A DNA stretch of 34,400 bases from Marine Group II euryarchaeote MED-G33. Lineage in GTDB: Archaea; Thermoplasmatota; Poseidoniia; Poseidoniales; Thalassarchaeaceae. Shown here one piece after another: positions 20,105 through 23,224 of this stretch (within the stretch, counting starts at the first letter, position 1; the number at the start of each line of letters is the position of its first letter). Both the position numbers and the translations under genes were made by a program. The stretch covers positions 1-34,400 of the forward strand of contig CATISE010000078.1 in the NCBI GenBank assembly GCA_949538655.1, given 5' to 3'. Under the pieces are notes generated by a model, which was not told where the DNA came from, ran no database searches, and saw only the letters and a program-made list of their open reading frames with translations.

Positions 20105-21445
20105 ATGTACCTGATTACCGTTGAGGGTGGGGATGGTTCGGGCAAAGGTCTGGCCACAAAAATGATTGCTGAAATTTTACAGCAAGAATTCACATTTTCT
20201 GGTGTGGACGTTACCGCTGAACCACGTCGAGATGCCGAACTGGGGTTGCTGGCGGTTGAAGCAGTCCGCACAGGTGATGCAGGACCGACCAGAGAGGCCG
20301 TATATTTCGCAGCAGATCGTATGGACCACTCGCATACTTGGATTCGTCCAAGATTGGGGCAGGGTCGTGTGATTGTCAGTGAGCGAAATATCCACTCTTC
20401 TTTGGTCTACCAAGGGGTGGTAGGAGATCTCGGAATCGAGGAAGTCGCCCGCATGAACGCAGCTGCGATGATTCCAGATCTCTGCATCTGGGTCGATTGT
20501 GATCCAGGAGCAGCATTGCGTAGAATTGAACAAGATACACTTCGAATCACACTCGACAAGTCAGAATATTTTGAAACTGATGAGTATCAGAAAAAAATTC
20601 GTCAAGGGTACCATGATTTACTCGGTGGAACTGTTCCAATGCCCTCTCCATTCAACCGGGGGCGCGTAGTAGGGCCCATTGTCAATGATAGCACAAAGGG
20701 GGAGTTGCGGAAGAAATTGCAACTTGAAATCCGGCGATTTCTGCATGAACGTCCAAAGCCACTGAATGTTTCGACCGAAGAAGTCGACCTTCACATGCTG
20801 GGTCGGGCTTTGGTTTCTCAGCGAGGACAAACAACCCTGGATGTAGTCGAATCACGGCCTCCTCGTAGCAATTTGGATTGGCTAGATTCACGCAAACCTT
20901 GGGAAATTGTTCGCGACTCTACGAAGATCTATGTCGATGCCATTCAGGCGTCGGACACACCCTCACGTCTCGATGCACCTGCGGATCCTCTTAGCCATCC
21001 AGTGCTAGCCATCGTCGGGACTCTTTCTTTGCTCCCGAGCGTTGAGATTCATGAGTTGAGGACGTGGCTAGGCCCGGTCCGGATGGTAACGGAGAGGCAC
21101 ACACGTAGGATGGTGAAAATATTCCATGAACAATCTGGCTGGGTTAGGGTCTATCGCTCGCTGGTCGGTGGCGATGCTTCACGCTCTGAATTGCGTTCTG
21201 ACTGGCAGGCTTTCGGTCGAATTGGAATTGCACTGTGGCCACTCAAAGAAGCCCTTTCTGAATGGCGCAAGACACATCCAGGATCATCTTGGAAACATGC
21301 ACTCAGTGCATCATTGTCATCTGAACCAAACGCTGCACAATCATGCCTTTCTCGATTGGCCTTGCTGGGTTCTGGTAAGGCAGAAGTTCCACCCCCAAGC
21401 AACCGTGAAGAACTCATCACTTGGTGGCAAAATGGTGCTGTTTGA
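20105..21445 (+). CDS. tmk: Thymidylate kinase (dTMP kinase) domain fused to a ~230 aa C-terminal domain of unknown function
   Basis: LITVEGGDGSGKG, TAEP, YFAADRMDH, IRPRLGQGRVIVSERNIHSSLVYQG, PDLCIWVD, FE...YQKKIRQGY. RBS GAGGTG at 20094-20099. Confidence 0.85.
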   Translation: MYLITVEGGDGSGKGLATKMIAEILQQEFTFSGVDVTAEPRRDAELGLLAVEAVRTGDAGPTREAVYFAADRMDHSHTWIRPRLGQGRVIVSERNIHSSLVYQGVVGDLGIEEVARMNAAAMIPDLCIWVDCDPGAALRRIEQDTLRITLDKSEYFETDEYQKKIRQGYHDLLGGTVPMPSPFNRGRVVGPIVNDSTKGELRKKLQLEIRRFLHERPKPLNVSTEEVDLHMLGRALVSQRGQTTLDVVESRPPRSNLDWLDSRKPWEIVRDSTKIYVDAIQASDTPSRLDAPADPLSHPVLAIVGTLSLLPSVEIHELRTWLGPVRMVTERHTRRMVKIFHEQSGWVRVYRSLVGGDASRSELRSDWQAFGRIGIALWPLKEALSEWRKTHPGSSWKHALSASLSSEPNAAQSCLSRLALLGSGKAEVPPPSNREELITWWQNGAV

Positions 21446-22222
21446 TTATTCACTTTCATCTTGGGTGTTCACTGCAGCTGACAAACGGGCACCTGCTGGG
21501 AGGTGGACCTGAGATGCATCAAAACCGAATTTCTCAGGCCTTGATGACAAGCTTGCACACAAATACCATCCAATGATGAAGCCAAATGGGAGTCCGGTTA
21601 GGATACGCATTGGGTTGATTGATTCGTAGTCAGTGATGGCTTGGATGCCCCCATCCAGCACAACAGGTAAACAAAATAGTACACCCATTCCAAGCATGGC
21701 GGGCAATCGTCGATCTTTCATGTAGAGGGGGGCAATCATTGAATCGGGTAGGAGGGTTAGGAATGAGTCGCGTATGGTCCATCGATTCAGCCCACGTCTT
21801 GAAAACCACCAACTGCCCAGGGCGAGTCCGAAGAAAATACCAACATCACGGGTACACACTGGCATTTGGTTGCCATTGATTACCCAGGAACGTTCATGCT
21901 TTTGATGGCAATTCAAATCGCCAAAAGCATAGACGAATGCAAAGTATGGGTTGAGTTCTGACCAAGCAAAAGTCCCGCCATGGGCACTTTGGTTGTGCCC
22001 CATTTCACCACCCTCATGGTGATCTTGATTCCCCCATGATCCTTCGGATGTGTAATCCATCATATTGGCTCGACCCGACAGTTCGGGGACGGTGCCATGT
22101 GGCATCAAAATTGGAACTAGAAACATCGAGATACAGTAGAATGCAACGATTCGGAAAACCCATCGGCTGACCTTAATTTCACGGTCGCGACCACTCAACC
22201 CATTCCGATAGGGTGGCTCCAT
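21446..22222 (-). CDS. DUF2085-family membrane protein
   Basis: NCHQKHERSW..NGNQMPVCTRDVGI and LDGGIQ...ESINPMRILTG motifs, with several TM helices. Confidence 0.85.
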   Translation of the reverse strand: MEPPYRNGLSGRDREIKVSRWVFRIVAFYCISMFLVPILMPHGTVPELSGRANMMDYTSEGSWGNQDHHEGGEMGHNQSAHGGTFAWSELNPYFAFVYAFGDLNCHQKHERSWVINGNQMPVCTRDVGIFFGLALGSWWFSRRGLNRWTIRDSFLTLLPDSMIAPLYMKDRRLPAMLGMGVLFCLPVVLDGGIQAITDYESINPMRILTGLPFGFIIGWYLCASLSSRPEKFGFDASQVHLPAGARLSAAVNTQDESE

Positions 22223-22309
22223 GTTGGCTGGACTGCCAGTCGCATCTAATGTGCTTGCTGTTTCAATCTCTGCCGCCTCTTTGATAGCCGGCGACGTGGC
22301 GGCACATAC

Positions 22310-23086
22310 ATGACCGAGTTGAGACCGAGGGACTTGTTCACTCTCTCGGGCGTCATGGGTCTTATGATTGGCACAATGTCCTTTTTCATGTATATCTTTG
22401 CAAATGGGATGGATGTTTCCAATCTTGATCGGGCCATGGAAATCGGCGGGGTTGTCGGCGGTTCAACCGCTCTGGTTTTCCTCAGTTACACATCAGTTCG
22501 CTATGTGGAGCGCAATCGAAAGTTGGCAACAGCCACCGTTGAAATCGACACACTCGATCGTTTGCAAATGCTACTTCACCCAATCGAAGAGGCTGCAGTA
22601 ACCCTTCCATGGGCGGATGAAAAGCCGTGGACTACCTCCAGTCATGTCCGGCGTGACCGCGGTGTTTTGAGTGTGGATTTACATGATTTGGACCTTAAAC
22701 AAGCGAGAGCGACCATAGAACTCATTATCGCTTCTCGAGATTGGCTCGGACGGATTCGAATTGTCACTGGCCGAGGATTGCATTCGGCGACAGTTCCGAA
22801 GATTAGACCGATGGCCATTGAAAGACTACGCCAGGTCACAAGTAGACTCAATTGGGAATTACTCATGAAGAAAGGATCGGTGACCCTTCGCCCAATTGGG
22901 GCAGCCCCAACCCTGACGAAGTGGTTTTTGAGATTCATTTTCTTGGGTAGCCCGATTACTGTTGCCTTCGCATTGGCTTTCCGTGACCTTGCTGGCGAGG
23001 GAGCGCATACGCAAGGGCTCCAAGTCGGGGTTGTGCTGGGGATTCTTTTGAGCGGTCTACTCGCATCCTACAGAGAGCGTCAGTGA
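22310..23086 (+). CDS. Smr (small MutS-related) domain protein with two N-terminal and two C-terminal TM helices
   Basis: SVDLHDLDLKQARATI (DLH at 22676-22684) and IRIVTGRGLHS (TGRGLHS at 22766-22786) are the Smr signature motifs; four hydrophobic helices flank the domain. Confidence 0.8.
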   Translation: MTELRPRDLFTLSGVMGLMIGTMSFFMYIFANGMDVSNLDRAMEIGGVVGGSTALVFLSYTSVRYVERNRKLATATVEIDTLDRLQMLLHPIEEAAVTLPWADEKPWTTSSHVRRDRGVLSVDLHDLDLKQARATIELIIASRDWLGRIRIVTGRGLHSATVPKIRPMAIERLRQVTSRLNWELLMKKGSVTLRPIGAAPTLTKWFLRFIFLGSPITVAFALAFRDLAGEGAHTQGLQVGVVLGILLSGLLASYRERQ

Positions 23087-23224
23087 CTATTCCCAAGTGG
23101 GGGCACCTTCACAGCACGCTTCCACAACATGGCCACAGCGTGGACATTCCATGTGTTGTCTCCGAGGGACAGCTCTCCCCTTGTATCCACAGTGGCAGGT
23201 AATCGTCTCACAATAGTCTGCCAT
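23087..23224 (-). CDS. Small Cys-rich CPxCG-type zinc-finger protein (45 aa), not in the ORF track
   Basis: MADYCETITCHCGYKGRAVPRRQHMECPRCGHVVEACCEGAPTWE*: seven Cys arranged as C, CHC, CPRC and CC. It fills the gap between the Smr gene stop and tRNA-Glu. Confidence 0.75.
   Translation of the reverse strand: MADYCETITCHCGYKGRAVPRRQHMECPRCGHVVEACCEGAPTWE

What the first reader, a model, noticed from the sequence alone, without database searches (positions are those of the whole stretch)
22310..23086. Membrane-anchored Smr nuclease (2TM-Smr-2TM): candidate quality-control RNase at the membrane
Seen: intact DLH and TGRGLHS motifs in a soluble domain held between two TM hairpins; the basic flanks (RYVERNRK, final YRERQ) suggest it faces the cytoplasm. 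Established: Smr domains with DxH and GxG motifs (E. coli SmrB, yeast Cue2, C. elegans NONU-1) cleave mRNA on collided ribosomes, and those proteins are soluble. I do not know of a characterised TM-anchored Smr. Inference: rescue of ribosomes stalled during co-translational secretion of this organism's very large surface proteins, or a membrane-associated nuclease acting on incoming nucleic acid (defence or uptake). Nearby nob1, tRNA-Glu, tatA, DedA and SAMP genes loosely fit an RNA/secretion housekeeping context.
Basis: partly seen in the sequence, partly recalled or inferred. Interest (0 to 1): 0.75.

Follow-up and report, generated by a model that had tools for sequence, protein, structure and literature searches.

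The report
Membrane-embedded Smr protein of marine archaea
A conserved membrane protein of marine archaea carries, on its inner side, a small nuclease-type (Smr) domain otherwise known from soluble ribosome-rescue factors, which suggests that it cuts or binds RNA at the cell membrane, though nothing about its function has been tested.

Summary
ORF 22310-23086 (+) encodes a 258-aa protein with four hydrophobic helices (2+2). Between them lies a soluble domain with intact DLH (aa 123-125) and TGRGLHS (aa 153-159) motifs.

- **Smr identity:** supported at family level. Pfam Smr matched 18 of 25 members. The model's soluble part aligns best with solved Smr domains (Z 8.1, rmsd 2.1 A over 72 residues).
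- **Topology:** charge distribution puts the Smr domain in the cytoplasm.
- **Selection and spread:** the gene is under strong purifying selection (dN/dS 0.03-0.14) and is single-copy. It always sits divergently beside a DUF2085 gene. Among the genomes searched it is confined to one order of marine Thermoplasmatota (59 of 63 there, 1 weak hit in 238 elsewhere).
- **Relatives:** its nearest relatives are a large, unrecognised family of tail-anchored Smr proteins, mostly from Myxococcota.
- **Against a pure nuclease role:** 4 of 18 genera have lost DxH, yet the gene stays under selection.
- **Context and geometry:** the nob1/tatA/DedA context is conserved in only 2 of 14 loci. The Smr domain is held about six residues from the membrane, which makes a SmrB-like reach into translocon-docked disomes doubtful.

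Best reading: a membrane-surface RNA-binding endonuclease. It is a new variant of a known kind, and its function is untested.

The parts
22310..23086 (+). Whole gene: 258-aa integral membrane Smr protein (the end coordinate includes the stop codon)
   Evidence: ORF. 56 homologues. dN/dS 0.03-0.14.
22337..22402 (+). TM1 (aa ~10-31), with family-invariant M19, M23, F30
   Evidence: Hydropathy. Model helix 6-32. Invariant columns.
22439..22495 (+). TM2 (aa ~44-62), glycine-rich (G46, G50 invariant). In the model it continues as a helix to aa 74 through the basic RYVERNRK stretch.
22535..22645 (+). N-terminal extension of the Smr domain (aa ~76-112): two short helices plus the LPWA...PW..SH motif. 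W107 is invariant across the broadened family. The motif is shared with the tail-anchored bacterial relatives.
   Evidence: Model pLDDT is 87-92 here.
22646..22897 (+). Smr core (aa 113-196), beta-alpha-beta-alpha-beta-beta
   Evidence: Pfam Smr matches aa 122-176. VIA-align: 2zqe Z 8.1, rmsd 2.1 A over 72 residues; 4och Z 8.0; 3fau Z 7.4.
22676..22684 (+). DxH motif (D123-L-H125)
   Evidence: Read. D123 is invariant in A1. The motif is kept in 14 of 18 genera.
22766..22786 (+). GxG motif, TGRGLHS (aa 153-159)
   Evidence: Read. T153 and G154 are invariant in A1. It aligns to TGRGNHS of N4BP2. The loop 156-161 has low model confidence.
22922..22984 (+). TM3 (aa ~205-225), starting about 6 residues after the last Smr strand. 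R208, P215 and F224 are invariant.
22985..23014 (+). Short acidic outer loop with the conserved D226-L227-A228-G229-x-G231 motif (aa 226-235); it has no K/R
23015..23071 (+). TM4 (aa ~236-254), followed by the basic tail YRERQ. TM4 is missing in two genera of the sister family.
22223..22309 (.). 87-bp divergent intergenic region shared with the DUF2085 gene
   Evidence: The divergent arrangement is conserved in 14 of 14 loci and in 7 further sister-family loci.
21446..22222 (-). DUF2085 membrane protein gene. It is a constant divergent neighbour but a core gene of the order, so the link may be only positional.
   Evidence: Pfam PF09858, E 5.9e-22. Found in 200 of 201 genomes.

Best explanation
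**Shown or strongly supported.** The gene encodes an integral membrane protein with both termini and the central Smr domain in the cytoplasm. The order of parts is TM hairpin, Smr domain with a conserved N-terminal extension, then a second TM hairpin. The family is single-copy, vertically inherited and syntenic. In the genomes searched it is confined to one order of marine Thermoplasmatota (probably Marine Group II/Poseidoniales; that name is my inference, not a tool result). Its nearest relatives are tail-anchored Smr proteins, mostly from Myxococcota.

**Inferred.** In this genome the DxH and GxG motifs are intact. In SmrB and Cue2 these motifs are needed for mRNA cleavage and RNA binding. 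I therefore expect the domain to be an active Smr-type endonuclease. It is held within a few nanometres of the inner membrane face. There it would bind and cut RNA that comes to the membrane surface, most likely mRNA on membrane-proximal stalled ribosomes or mRNAs of membrane proteins. In effect it would work like a membrane-tethered SmrB/Cue2, or like the membrane-tethered decay RNases of bacteria.

Cleavage cannot be the whole conserved function. Four of 18 genera have lost DxH yet keep the gene under purifying selection. Ligand binding at the membrane (RNA, ribosome or a partner) is therefore probably the shared activity, with cleavage retained in most lineages. The very conserved TM3-loop-TM4 region suggests that the membrane part is more than an anchor.
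For: **Gene is real**
- ORF and motifs.
- Purifying selection.

**Smr identity**
- PF01713 matched 18 of 25 family members, best E 1.9e-6.
- Family member P0073 scores 31.4 bits, above the 25.7 cut-off.
- The family profile, run against 1.84 billion proteins, retrieves proteins that pass Pfam's Smr cut-off on their own: P0092 at E 5.0e-13 (36.7 bits to PF01713) and P0165 (42.3 bits).
- The nine best structural matches to the soluble part are all Smr domains, Z 6.8-8.1 at 16-23% identity. RNase E, SepF and IF3-C follow at Z <=6.6 and 8-13% identity.

**Topology**
- Positive-inside pattern in 25 of 25 rows.
- The relatives start with the Smr domain and have no N-terminal hydrophobic segment. One is Smr-TM-Peptidase_M23. 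This fits a cytoplasmic Smr domain.

**Distribution**
- Profile A1: 77 of 201 genomes of the order.
- Broadened profile A4: own family 17 of 21, sister family 42 of 42, all other families of the phylum sample 1 of 238. That one hit is weak (E 3.6e-4) and covers a TM segment only.
- All 25 archaeal rows fall on one side of a branch, SH-aLRT 98.

**Motif conservation**
- DxH in 14 of 18 genera, GxG in 13 of 18.
- The His-less genus has dN/dS 0.09-0.12 at unsaturated dS of 0.27-0.43.

**Roles of the motifs**
- Passages of the SmrB preprint (10.1101/2021.08.16.456513) and of a review (PMC11806357).
- The review passage also says that B. subtilis MutS2 binds collided ribosomes through its Smr domain without cutting mRNA, and that DXH is absent in many MutS2 proteins.
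Against: - The protein alone is below Pfam's Smr cut-off (18.9 against 25.7 bits).
- PF01713 run over the whole genome gave no match at E<=1.
- Profile against PDB sequences gave only E 0.22 for N4BP2 Smr.
- Foldseek on the whole model gave no match at E<=0.001; the best was 2d9i at E 0.04.
- Z of about 8 is in the range the tool calls middling.
- Catalytic residues are lost in 4 of 18 genera.
- Nothing here shows a substrate. No conserved functional neighbourhood was found in the archaea: DUF2085 is a core gene (200 of 201 genomes) and the other neighbours vary. None was found in 9 Myxococcota loci either.
- The tether between the Smr domain and TM3 is about 6 residues. This argues against reaching the inter-30S cleft of ribosomes docked on the translocon (inference from recalled ribosome-SecY geometry).
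- Topology rests on hydropathy, charge bias and a model, not on a dedicated predictor or an experiment.
- Smr domains of MutS2 also nick DNA (recalled), so an RNA substrate is not certain.
Confidence: 0.45

Rival explanations
1. Non-catalytic membrane adaptor. The Smr domain serves as a binding module for RNA, a ribosomal surface or a protein partner, the conserved 4-TM part does the main job, and the DxH/GxG motifs in this genome are a dispensable remnant.
For: - DxH is lost in 4 of 18 genera and GxG in 5 of 18.
- Selection is still strong in the His-less genus (dN/dS 0.09-0.12).
- Across the broadened family only W107 and R166 are invariant, not the catalytic residues.
- In A1, 15 of the 40 invariant columns lie in aa 208-257, the TM3-loop-TM4-tail region.
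- There is precedent for Smr domains that bind without cutting: B. subtilis MutS2 (passages in PMC11806357) and SmrA, predicted inactive.
Against: - DxH is kept in 14 of 18 genera.
- It is kept in nearly all tail-anchored relatives: in the 15-row alignment A2, H48 is invariant and D46 nearly so.
- That conservation is hard to explain without a catalytic role in most lineages.
Confidence: 0.2
2. Narrower version of the best explanation: a collision sensor for ribosomes stalled while translocating large surface proteins, inserting between two small subunits as SmrB does. Its probability is contained within that of the best explanation.
For: - Smr biology.
- Cytoplasmic orientation at the membrane.
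- The genome encodes very large surface and membrane proteins nearby: a 1411-aa PKD protein and a 1543-aa FtsX/MacB-like protein.
Against: - The Smr domain is tethered about 6 residues from TM3. The mRNA and 30S side of a translocon-docked ribosome faces away from the membrane (recalled; an inference).
- There is no SmrB-type soluble N-terminal hook and no KOW domain.
- The secretion-related gene context is conserved in only 2 of 14 loci.
Confidence: 0.15
3. Membrane-surface nuclease against incoming nucleic acid, for virus defence or DNA uptake. It would work like SNIPE, where membrane anchoring keeps a nuclease away from host DNA and places it at the point of genome entry.
For: - Precedent: SNIPE, a membrane-bound GIY-YIG nuclease that cuts phage DNA during injection (PMC13190303; abstract and passages).
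- The Smr domain sits right at the membrane face.
- The protein evolves faster than its neighbours: 28-51% identity across 14 loci, against 46-63% for DUF2085 and 38-65% for Tmk. Domains are also repeatedly lost or remodelled.
Against: - The gene is single-copy, occupies one fixed syntenic slot across the whole order and is vertically inherited.
- Purifying selection is strong.
- There is no PADLOC match, and no defence or mobile genes appeared among the neighbours scanned.
- Catalytically dead versions are maintained.
Confidence: 0.12
4. DNA-nicking enzyme of the MutS2-Smr type, acting on membrane-attached chromosomal DNA in recombination control, repair or segregation.
For: The best structural matches include the Smr domains of Thermus and Deinococcus MutS2 (Z 8.1 and 8.0). 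Those domains are reported to nick DNA (recalled, not read here).
Against: - There is no MutS-type ATPase, clamp or KOW part: the protein is 258 aa and the only Pfam rows at E<=10 are Smr and a weak Romo1.
- Current literature places Smr proteins mainly on RNA and ribosomes.
- There is no DNA-repair context.
Confidence: 0.08

Closest known systems
E. coli SmrB (stand-alone Smr endonuclease of collided ribosomes)
   Same: A small protein whose only globular part is an Smr domain with DxH and GxG motifs (DLH and GHG in SmrB). [quoted passage not shown]
   Different: SmrB is soluble, and its extension is an N-terminal helix with the acidic-acidic-x-x-x-aromatic motif that hooks uS2. Here the N-terminus is a TM hairpin, the extension carries a different motif (LPWA..PW..SH), and a second TM hairpin follows. 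SmrB did not appear among the structural matches listed.
Smr domains of MutS2 (Thermus 2zqe, Deinococcus 4och) and of human N4BP2 (2d9i, 3fau, 2vkc)
   Same: These are the best structural matches: Z 8.1 (rmsd 2.1 A, 72 of 80 residues, 21% identity), 8.0 and 7.0-8.1. The motifs align residue for residue with N4BP2.
   Different: Those domains sit at the C-terminus of large soluble proteins with ATPase, KOW, CUE or kinase modules. Here the domain is inserted between membrane hairpins.
Tail-anchored Smr proteins (unnamed family; 5 of 9 genome loci are titled Myxococcota and 2 Deltaproteobacteria)
   Same: They are the nearest sequence relatives (E 2.6e-15 to about 1e-7 with the archaeal profile). 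They share the N-terminal extension motif and DLHDL/TGxGxHS, and a hydrophobic helix follows shortly after an 'AP' linker. Most are likewise below Pfam's Smr cut-off.
   Different: They have about 150-190 aa, no N-terminal TM hairpin, and one C-terminal helix (sometimes two). A few are fused to Peptidase_M23 or zinc ribbons. They form a separate group in the tree (29 of 31 rows, SH-aLRT 92), and its relation to the archaeal clade is unresolved.
Membrane-tethered endoribonucleases of bacteria (RNase E via an amphipathic helix, RNase Y via an N-terminal TM helix; recalled, not read here)
   Same: Works-like analogy: an endonuclease restricted to the inner face of the membrane. The Smr fold is also related to the DNase-I-like subdomain of RNase E (Z 6.1-6.6).
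   Different: They use different catalytic domains and chemistry, and there is no sequence relationship at family level.
SNIPE (membrane-bound GIY-YIG nuclease, anti-phage; PMC13190303)
   Same: A cytoplasm-facing nuclease domain anchored in the membrane.
   Different: SNIPE has one N-terminal TM helix, DUF4041 and a GIY-YIG domain, and it is a mobile defence gene. This protein has an Smr domain, four TM helices, a fixed chromosomal slot and no PADLOC hit.

Membership tests
Smr domain (Pfam PF01713) | Significant sequence-profile similarity to the Smr family | tested here: met
   Met at family level only. This protein alone scores 18.9 bits (cut-off 25.7), E 0.0017, and the own-genome PF01713 scan found no hit at E<=1. 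Across the family, 18 of 25 members match, best E 1.9e-6, and member P0073 scores 31.4 bits. The family profile also retrieves Pfam-passing Smr proteins at E 5.0e-13.
Smr domain (Pfam PF01713) | Two-layer alpha/beta fold, beta-alpha-beta-alpha-beta-beta (IF3-C-like) | tested here: met
   Model elements are E119-123, H129-141, E149-152, H165-180, E182-187 and E190-195. The nine top soluble-part matches are Smr domains, Z 6.8-8.1. The Z values are middling by the tool's own note.
Smr domain (Pfam PF01713) | DxH motif at the end of the first core strand | tested here: met
   D123-L-H125. It is aligned to the DLH of N4BP2.
Smr domain (Pfam PF01713) | GxG motif (TGxGxHS) after the second core strand | tested here: met
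   T153-G-R-G-L-H-S159.
Smr domain (Pfam PF01713) | Endonuclease activity dependent on DxH | not testable with these tools
   This needs an enzyme assay.
SmrB clade (proteobacterial stand-alone Smr) | Soluble N-terminal helix with the acidic-acidic-x-x-x-aromatic motif that binds uS2 | tested here: not met
   Here aa 1-62 are a TM hairpin. The segment before the Smr core carries LPWADEKPW, which does not fit that motif.
MutS2 clade | [quoted passage not shown] | tested here: not met
   The protein has 258 aa. The only Pfam rows at E<=10 are Smr and a weak Romo1.
Tail-anchored Smr family (unnamed, Myxococcota) | N-terminal extension motif (L-x-W-A ... W ... [ST]-H) plus an Smr core followed by a hydrophobic helix | tested here: met
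   The motifs are shared. The archaeal proteins form their own clade (SH-aLRT 98) and have extra TM helices, so they are a sister or derived architecture rather than the same family in the narrow sense.
SNIPE-type membrane nucleases | DUF4041 plus a GIY-YIG nuclease domain | tested here: not met
   No such Pfam match and no PADLOC match.
SepF / IF3-C / RNase E DNase-I-like subdomain (same superfold) | Closer structural and sequence similarity to these than to Smr | tested here: not met
   Z 5.5-6.6 at 8-13% identity, below the Smr matches. These families do not have the DxH and GxG motifs (recalled).

The most novel reading that the evidence does not exclude
Membrane-embedded and tail-anchored Smr proteins form a previously unrecognised class of membrane-surface RNA surveillance factors, found in marine Group II-like archaea and in Myxococcota. 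In this reading the archaeal member would be the first candidate no-go-decay-type endonuclease of Archaea. It would be specialised for messages being translated at the membrane. Its conserved 4-TM module (TM3-DLAGxG loop-TM4) would couple it to a membrane partner such as the translocon, an insertase or the neighbouring DUF2085 protein. The DxH-less lineages would have converted it into a cleavage-independent sensor, as happened with MutS2.
Probability: 0.2. Interest if true: 0.8.

Novelty: new variant of a known kind. Interest (0 to 1): 0.55.

Why it matters
- **Known Smr proteins are soluble.** Smr proteins are the conserved mRNA endonucleases or sensors of collided ribosomes in bacteria and eukaryotes. 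All characterised ones are soluble.
[quoted passage not shown] I know of no assigned endonuclease for stalled archaeal ribosomes (recalled).
- **A membrane-integrated version would be new.** A near-universal version in an abundant, uncultured order of marine archaea, plus a large family of tail-anchored relatives in Myxococcota that mostly escape Pfam's threshold, would mean that Smr function is spatially restricted to the membrane in some lineages.
- **Natural active and inactive variants exist.** Repeated loss of the catalytic residues under continued selection gives natural 'sensor-only' variants to compare with active ones.
- **Limit of this work.** All of this is inference from sequence. 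None of it has been tested experimentally.

Tried and rejected
- **Homodimer prediction** (two copies, alignment A1): no answer, score 0.00. This counts neither for nor against self-association.
- **The search for related loci with the 15-row alignment A2** failed because no stretch was conserved enough. It worked with the 5-row alignment A3.
- **The listing of cluster members** could not be run because the database was off, so source names of the relatives are missing.
- **NCBIfam:** only a weak CrcB row (E 0.08), rejected.
- **Single-sequence PDB search:** only E 0.4-1.1 hits to designed proteins, rejected.
- **Co-occurrence with DUF2085:** no signal, because DUF2085 is in 200 of 201 genomes.
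- **Gene context of 9 Myxococcota loci:** nothing recurrent. One ABC-F-type ATPase and one Leu/Phe-tRNA protein transferase lie nearby, each in a single locus.
- **PADLOC:** no hit for the protein or for two tail-anchored relatives.
- **RNA runs:** four oligo-dT RNA libraries of one study hold 80-237-base contigs inside the ORF (for example 22527-22757 and 22802-23038), at depth 2-6 and 95-100% identity. The neighbours are covered alike and DNA carry-over cannot be excluded, so transcription is not shown. Uncovered parts mean nothing.
- **4-TM bundle:** it aligns with NDUFA11/B14.7, Tim22 and Tim23 (Z 8.2-9.1), and Romo1 gives weak Pfam rows (3 of 25 members, best E 0.11). That Z is below what the tool asks for helical bundles, so I make no claim.
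- **Direction of transfer** between archaea and Myxococcota: unresolved in the tree.
- **Literature:** five full-text searches and term look-ups in the SmrB and NONU-1 preprints ('membrane' occurs 0 times in each main text) found no description of a TM-anchored Smr. The architecture figures and supplements of those papers could not be seen and may show such forms.
Full report
**1. The observation**

The window has an ORF at exactly 22310..23086 on the + strand. It is 258 aa long and starts with ATG. Its translation contains the following:
- D123-L-H125 (nt 22676-22684)
- T153-G-R-G-L-H-S159 (nt 22766-22786)
- RYVERNRK (aa 64-71)
- a YRERQ C-terminus

A 19-residue Kyte-Doolittle scan gives four hydrophobic stretches, at about aa 10-31, 44-62, 205-225 and 236-254. 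An AlphaFold2 model built on 25 family sequences has mean pLDDT 82.0 and pTM 0.59. It shows helices 6-32, 36-74, 202-228 and 233-252. Between them lies a beta-alpha-beta-alpha-beta-beta domain (strands 119-123, 149-152, 182-187, 190-195; helices 129-141, 165-180), preceded by short helices at 81-96 and a strand at 113-116.

**2. It is a real gene**

- The word-indexed search found 56 proteins at E<=0.001 among 2203 candidates. Most are 257-260 aa long and 37-95% identical.
- Seven orthologues from the same genus gave dN/dS of 0.031-0.141 in the 14 of 21 pairs where dS was not saturated. The cleanest pair had dN 0.019 and dS 0.306. One 257-aa orthologue was dropped, and four loci were not picked up by my motif filter.

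**3. Is the middle domain Smr?**

On its own the protein is sub-threshold:
- PF01713 scores 18.9 bits against a cut-off of 25.7 (E 0.0017, aa 122-176).
- A scan of the whole genome with PF01713 gave no match at E<=1. That genome is 78.85% complete.
- The family profile against PDB sequences gave only E 0.22 for the N4BP2 Smr domain. The alignment does pair DLH with DLH and TGRG.HS with TGRGNHS.
- Foldseek on the whole model found nothing at E<=0.001. The best hit was N4BP2 Smr 2d9i (E 0.04, probability 1.00).

At family level the case is good:
- 18 of 25 members match PF01713, best E 1.9e-6. Member P0073 scores 31.4 bits.
- The family profile, run against 1.84 billion representative proteins, retrieves proteins that pass Pfam's Smr cut-off by themselves. 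P0092 came at E 5.0e-13 (36.7 bits to PF01713) and P0165 scores 42.3 bits.
- VIA-align places Smr domains on top for the soluble part. Thermus MutS2 2zqe has Z 8.1 (rmsd 2.1 A, 72 of 80 residues, 21% identity). Deinococcus MutS2 4och has Z 8.0. N4BP2 entries have Z 7.0-8.1. The Smr domain of a subunit of the plastid RNA polymerase complex has Z 6.8-7.8.
- RNase E's DNase-I-like subdomain, SepF and IF3-C follow at Z 5.5-6.6 and 8-13% identity.

These Z values are middling by the tool's own warning. I accept the assignment because fold, motifs and profile agree. SmrB-clade and MutS2-clade membership are both ruled out by architecture.

**4. Topology**

In 25 of 25 aligned family members the two short hairpin loops are nearly free of K/R. 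Their means are 0.32 and 0.56, with net acidic charge. The segments flanking the Smr domain are basic (mean K+R 4.2 and 4.5), and the tails carry 2.0 and 1.5.

By the positive-inside rule this gives N-in, Smr-in, C-in. The bacterial relatives begin directly with the Smr domain and have no N-terminal hydrophobic segment. One is Smr-TM-Peptidase_M23. This fits a cytoplasmic Smr domain. No dedicated topology predictor was available.

**5. Distribution and evolution**

*Spread.* With the first profile (A1), 77 of 201 genomes of the order matched: own family 68 of 99, a second family 0 of 2, sister family 8 of 99. There was always one copy.

*Sister family.* Inspecting the syntenic slot in the sister family revealed strongly diverged orthologues:
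- 210-211-aa forms with two N-terminal TM helices, Smr, and a single C-terminal helix (two genera)
- 229-233-aa forms with degenerate motifs (two genera)

*Broadened profile.* After adding these to the profile (A4), a sample of 301 genomes of the phylum gave own family 17 of 21, sister family 42 of 42, and all other families 1 of 238. That one hit was weak (E 3.6e-4) and covered a TM segment only. The family is thus near-universal in one order and was not found elsewhere in those searched.

*Taxon name.* The only taxon name any tool gave is 'Candidatus Thermoplasmatota archaeon'. 'Marine Group II/Poseidoniales' is my inference.

*Synteny.* In 14 of 14 loci from 13 other genera the gene lies divergently next to a DUF2085 gene. 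Beyond that come a long thymidylate-kinase gene, a CarboxypepD_reg gene, glutamine cyclotransferase and a PKD protein. The DedA/Nob1/TatA side is kept in only 2 of 14. DUF2085 itself is in 200 of 201 genomes, so the pairing may be purely positional.

*Losses.* Where the Smr gene is missing, the slot is closed up. This was seen in 3 loci of the own family and 1 of the second family. In 2 of those loci a conserved 45-aa zinc-ribbon ORF sits directly beside DUF2085. In this window that same ORF follows the Smr gene.

*Rate of change.* The protein diverges faster than its neighbours: 28-51% identity, against 46-63% for DUF2085 and 38-65% for Tmk, across the same 14 loci.

**6. Catalytic motifs**

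Across one to three loci from each of 18 genera, DxH (DLH or DMH) is kept in 14 genera. It is lost in 4 (DLM/DLL, NLI, SLS, KLR). GxG is kept in 13.

In the genus with DLM/DLL and TG[IV]IG, three orthologues give dN/dS of 0.09-0.12 at dS 0.27-0.43. The 'dead' form is therefore maintained by selection.

Across the broadened family only W107 and R166 are invariant. This mirrors what is written about bacterial Smr proteins: SmrA is predicted inactive, active-site residues were lost several times in MutS2, and B. subtilis MutS2 binds collided ribosomes without cutting (passages seen).

**7. Relatives outside the archaea**

The exhaustive profile search listed 150 proteins, with 153 at E<=0.001. 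I classified 149 of them (P0039 left out as already known) with a strict hydropathy threshold:

| Class | Count |
|---|---|
| Smr followed by a C-terminal hydrophobic helix | 57 |
| Archaeal full-length forms (5 more scored as N-TM only) | 6 |
| Non-archaeal forms with an N-terminal hydrophobic segment before Smr | 6 |
| No hydrophobic segment | 37 |
| Fragments | 37 |

The tail-anchored proteins are about 150-190 aa long. They share the L-x-W-A...W...[ST]H extension, DLHDL and TGxGxHS. Most fall below Pfam's cut-off.

Nine loci found in species-representative genomes are titled as follows:
- Myxococcota (5)
- Deltaproteobacteria (2)
- an 'Alphaproteobacteria' bin whose isolate name contains MYXO (1)
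- 'uncultured Enterobacteriaceae' (1)

The ESM Atlas neighbour cluster is also mostly Myxococcota, with phylum known for 6 members.

I built a quick maximum-likelihood tree of 88 domain sequences. The rows were 25 archaeal, 31 of the 57 tail-anchored, 26 of the 37 without TM and 6 N-TM. All 25 archaeal rows fall on one side of a branch (SH-aLRT 98), and 29 of 31 tail-anchored rows fall in one group (92). The relation between the two groups is unresolved.

**8. How it most likely works**

*Shown:* a selected, cytoplasm-facing Smr domain with intact motifs, fixed to the membrane by four helices. The last strand ends at aa 195 and TM3 begins at aa 202.

*Inferred:* it binds and, in this lineage, cuts RNA at the inner membrane face.

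The short tether matters. In SmrB the Smr domain sits between the two small subunits of a disome. A ribosome docked on the translocon presents its large subunit to the membrane, so its mRNA lies far from the bilayer (recalled). In the looser model, substrates are membrane-proximal polysomes not docked by their exit tunnel, mRNAs of membrane proteins, or other RNA at the membrane.

The high conservation of TM3-DLAGxG-TM4 suggests a partner or a role within the membrane. In A1, 15 of the 40 invariant columns lie in aa 208-257.

The rivals are a non-catalytic adaptor, a SNIPE-like defence or uptake nuclease, and a MutS2-like DNA nickase. They are weighed in their own sections.

**9. Novelty**

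The Smr identity is partly visible in databases. One cluster carries the automatic name 'putative Smr domain-containing protein', and one member has a precomputed PF01713 hit. The presence of Smr in Thermoplasmatota is mentioned in the SmrB preprint.

I found no description of a membrane-integrated or tail-anchored Smr protein in five full-text searches. The word 'membrane' does not occur in the main text of the SmrB or NONU-1 preprints. Their figures and supplements could not be seen.

I rate the finding a new variant of a known kind. It has moderate to good interest, and its function is entirely untested.

Noticed in passing
window 23087-23224 (-): A 45-aa zinc-ribbon-like ORF (two Cys pairs plus a CC pair) runs convergent with the Smr gene and abuts its stop codon. 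It is conserved at 60-87% identity in 10 other loci. In two loci that lack the Smr gene (L039, L043) it lies directly beside the DUF2085 gene. The Smr gene therefore behaves as an insertion or deletion between two conserved genes.
   Followed up: partly
window 21446-22222 (-): The DUF2085 membrane protein, with a conserved Cys/His-rich stretch, is present in 200 of 201 genomes of the order. It is always divergent from the Smr gene where that gene exists. Its function is unknown.
   Followed up: partly
window 20105-21445 (+): The thymidylate kinase is 446 aa long, but the Pfam Tmk domain covers only aa 6-173. A C-terminal extension of about 270 aa has no Pfam match and is conserved across the order (38-65% identity over the full length in 14 loci). 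There is also a weak PADLOC row, PDC-M51B, E 4.9e-5.
   Followed up: no
window 22310-22495 and 22922-23071 (the four TM helices): The 2+2 helix bundle aligns with NDUFA11/B14.7, Tim22 and Tim23 (Z 8.2-9.1). Romo1 gives weak Pfam rows in 3 of 25 members. This is below the level the tool asks for helical bundles, so it is only a lead.
   Followed up: no
L036, L044, L045, L046 (sister-family loci): Orthologues in two genera have lost TM4 and the conserved outer loop (210-211 aa; two N-terminal helices, Smr, one C-terminal helix). Their C-terminus would then lie outside the cell. They keep DLH or DMH and VGRG or VGQG.
   Followed up: partly
proteins P0083, P0124, P0145 (relatives): Unusual architectures occur among the bacterial relatives: three tandem Smr-like repeats, each with the LPWA-type extension (616 aa); Smr-TM-Peptidase_M23 (392 aa); and Smr-TM-zinc ribbons (330 aa).
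   Followed up: no
This was judged by eye only and not scanned.
   Followed up: no
ESM Atlas rows for P0095: Two clusters of 179-188-aa proteins, mainly from Thermoplasmatota, scored 0.80-0.82; one has PF01713 in 14% of its members. Short, possibly tail-anchored Smr proteins may therefore also exist in archaea. The scores are below the tool's 0.9 mark, so this is only a lead.
   Followed up: no
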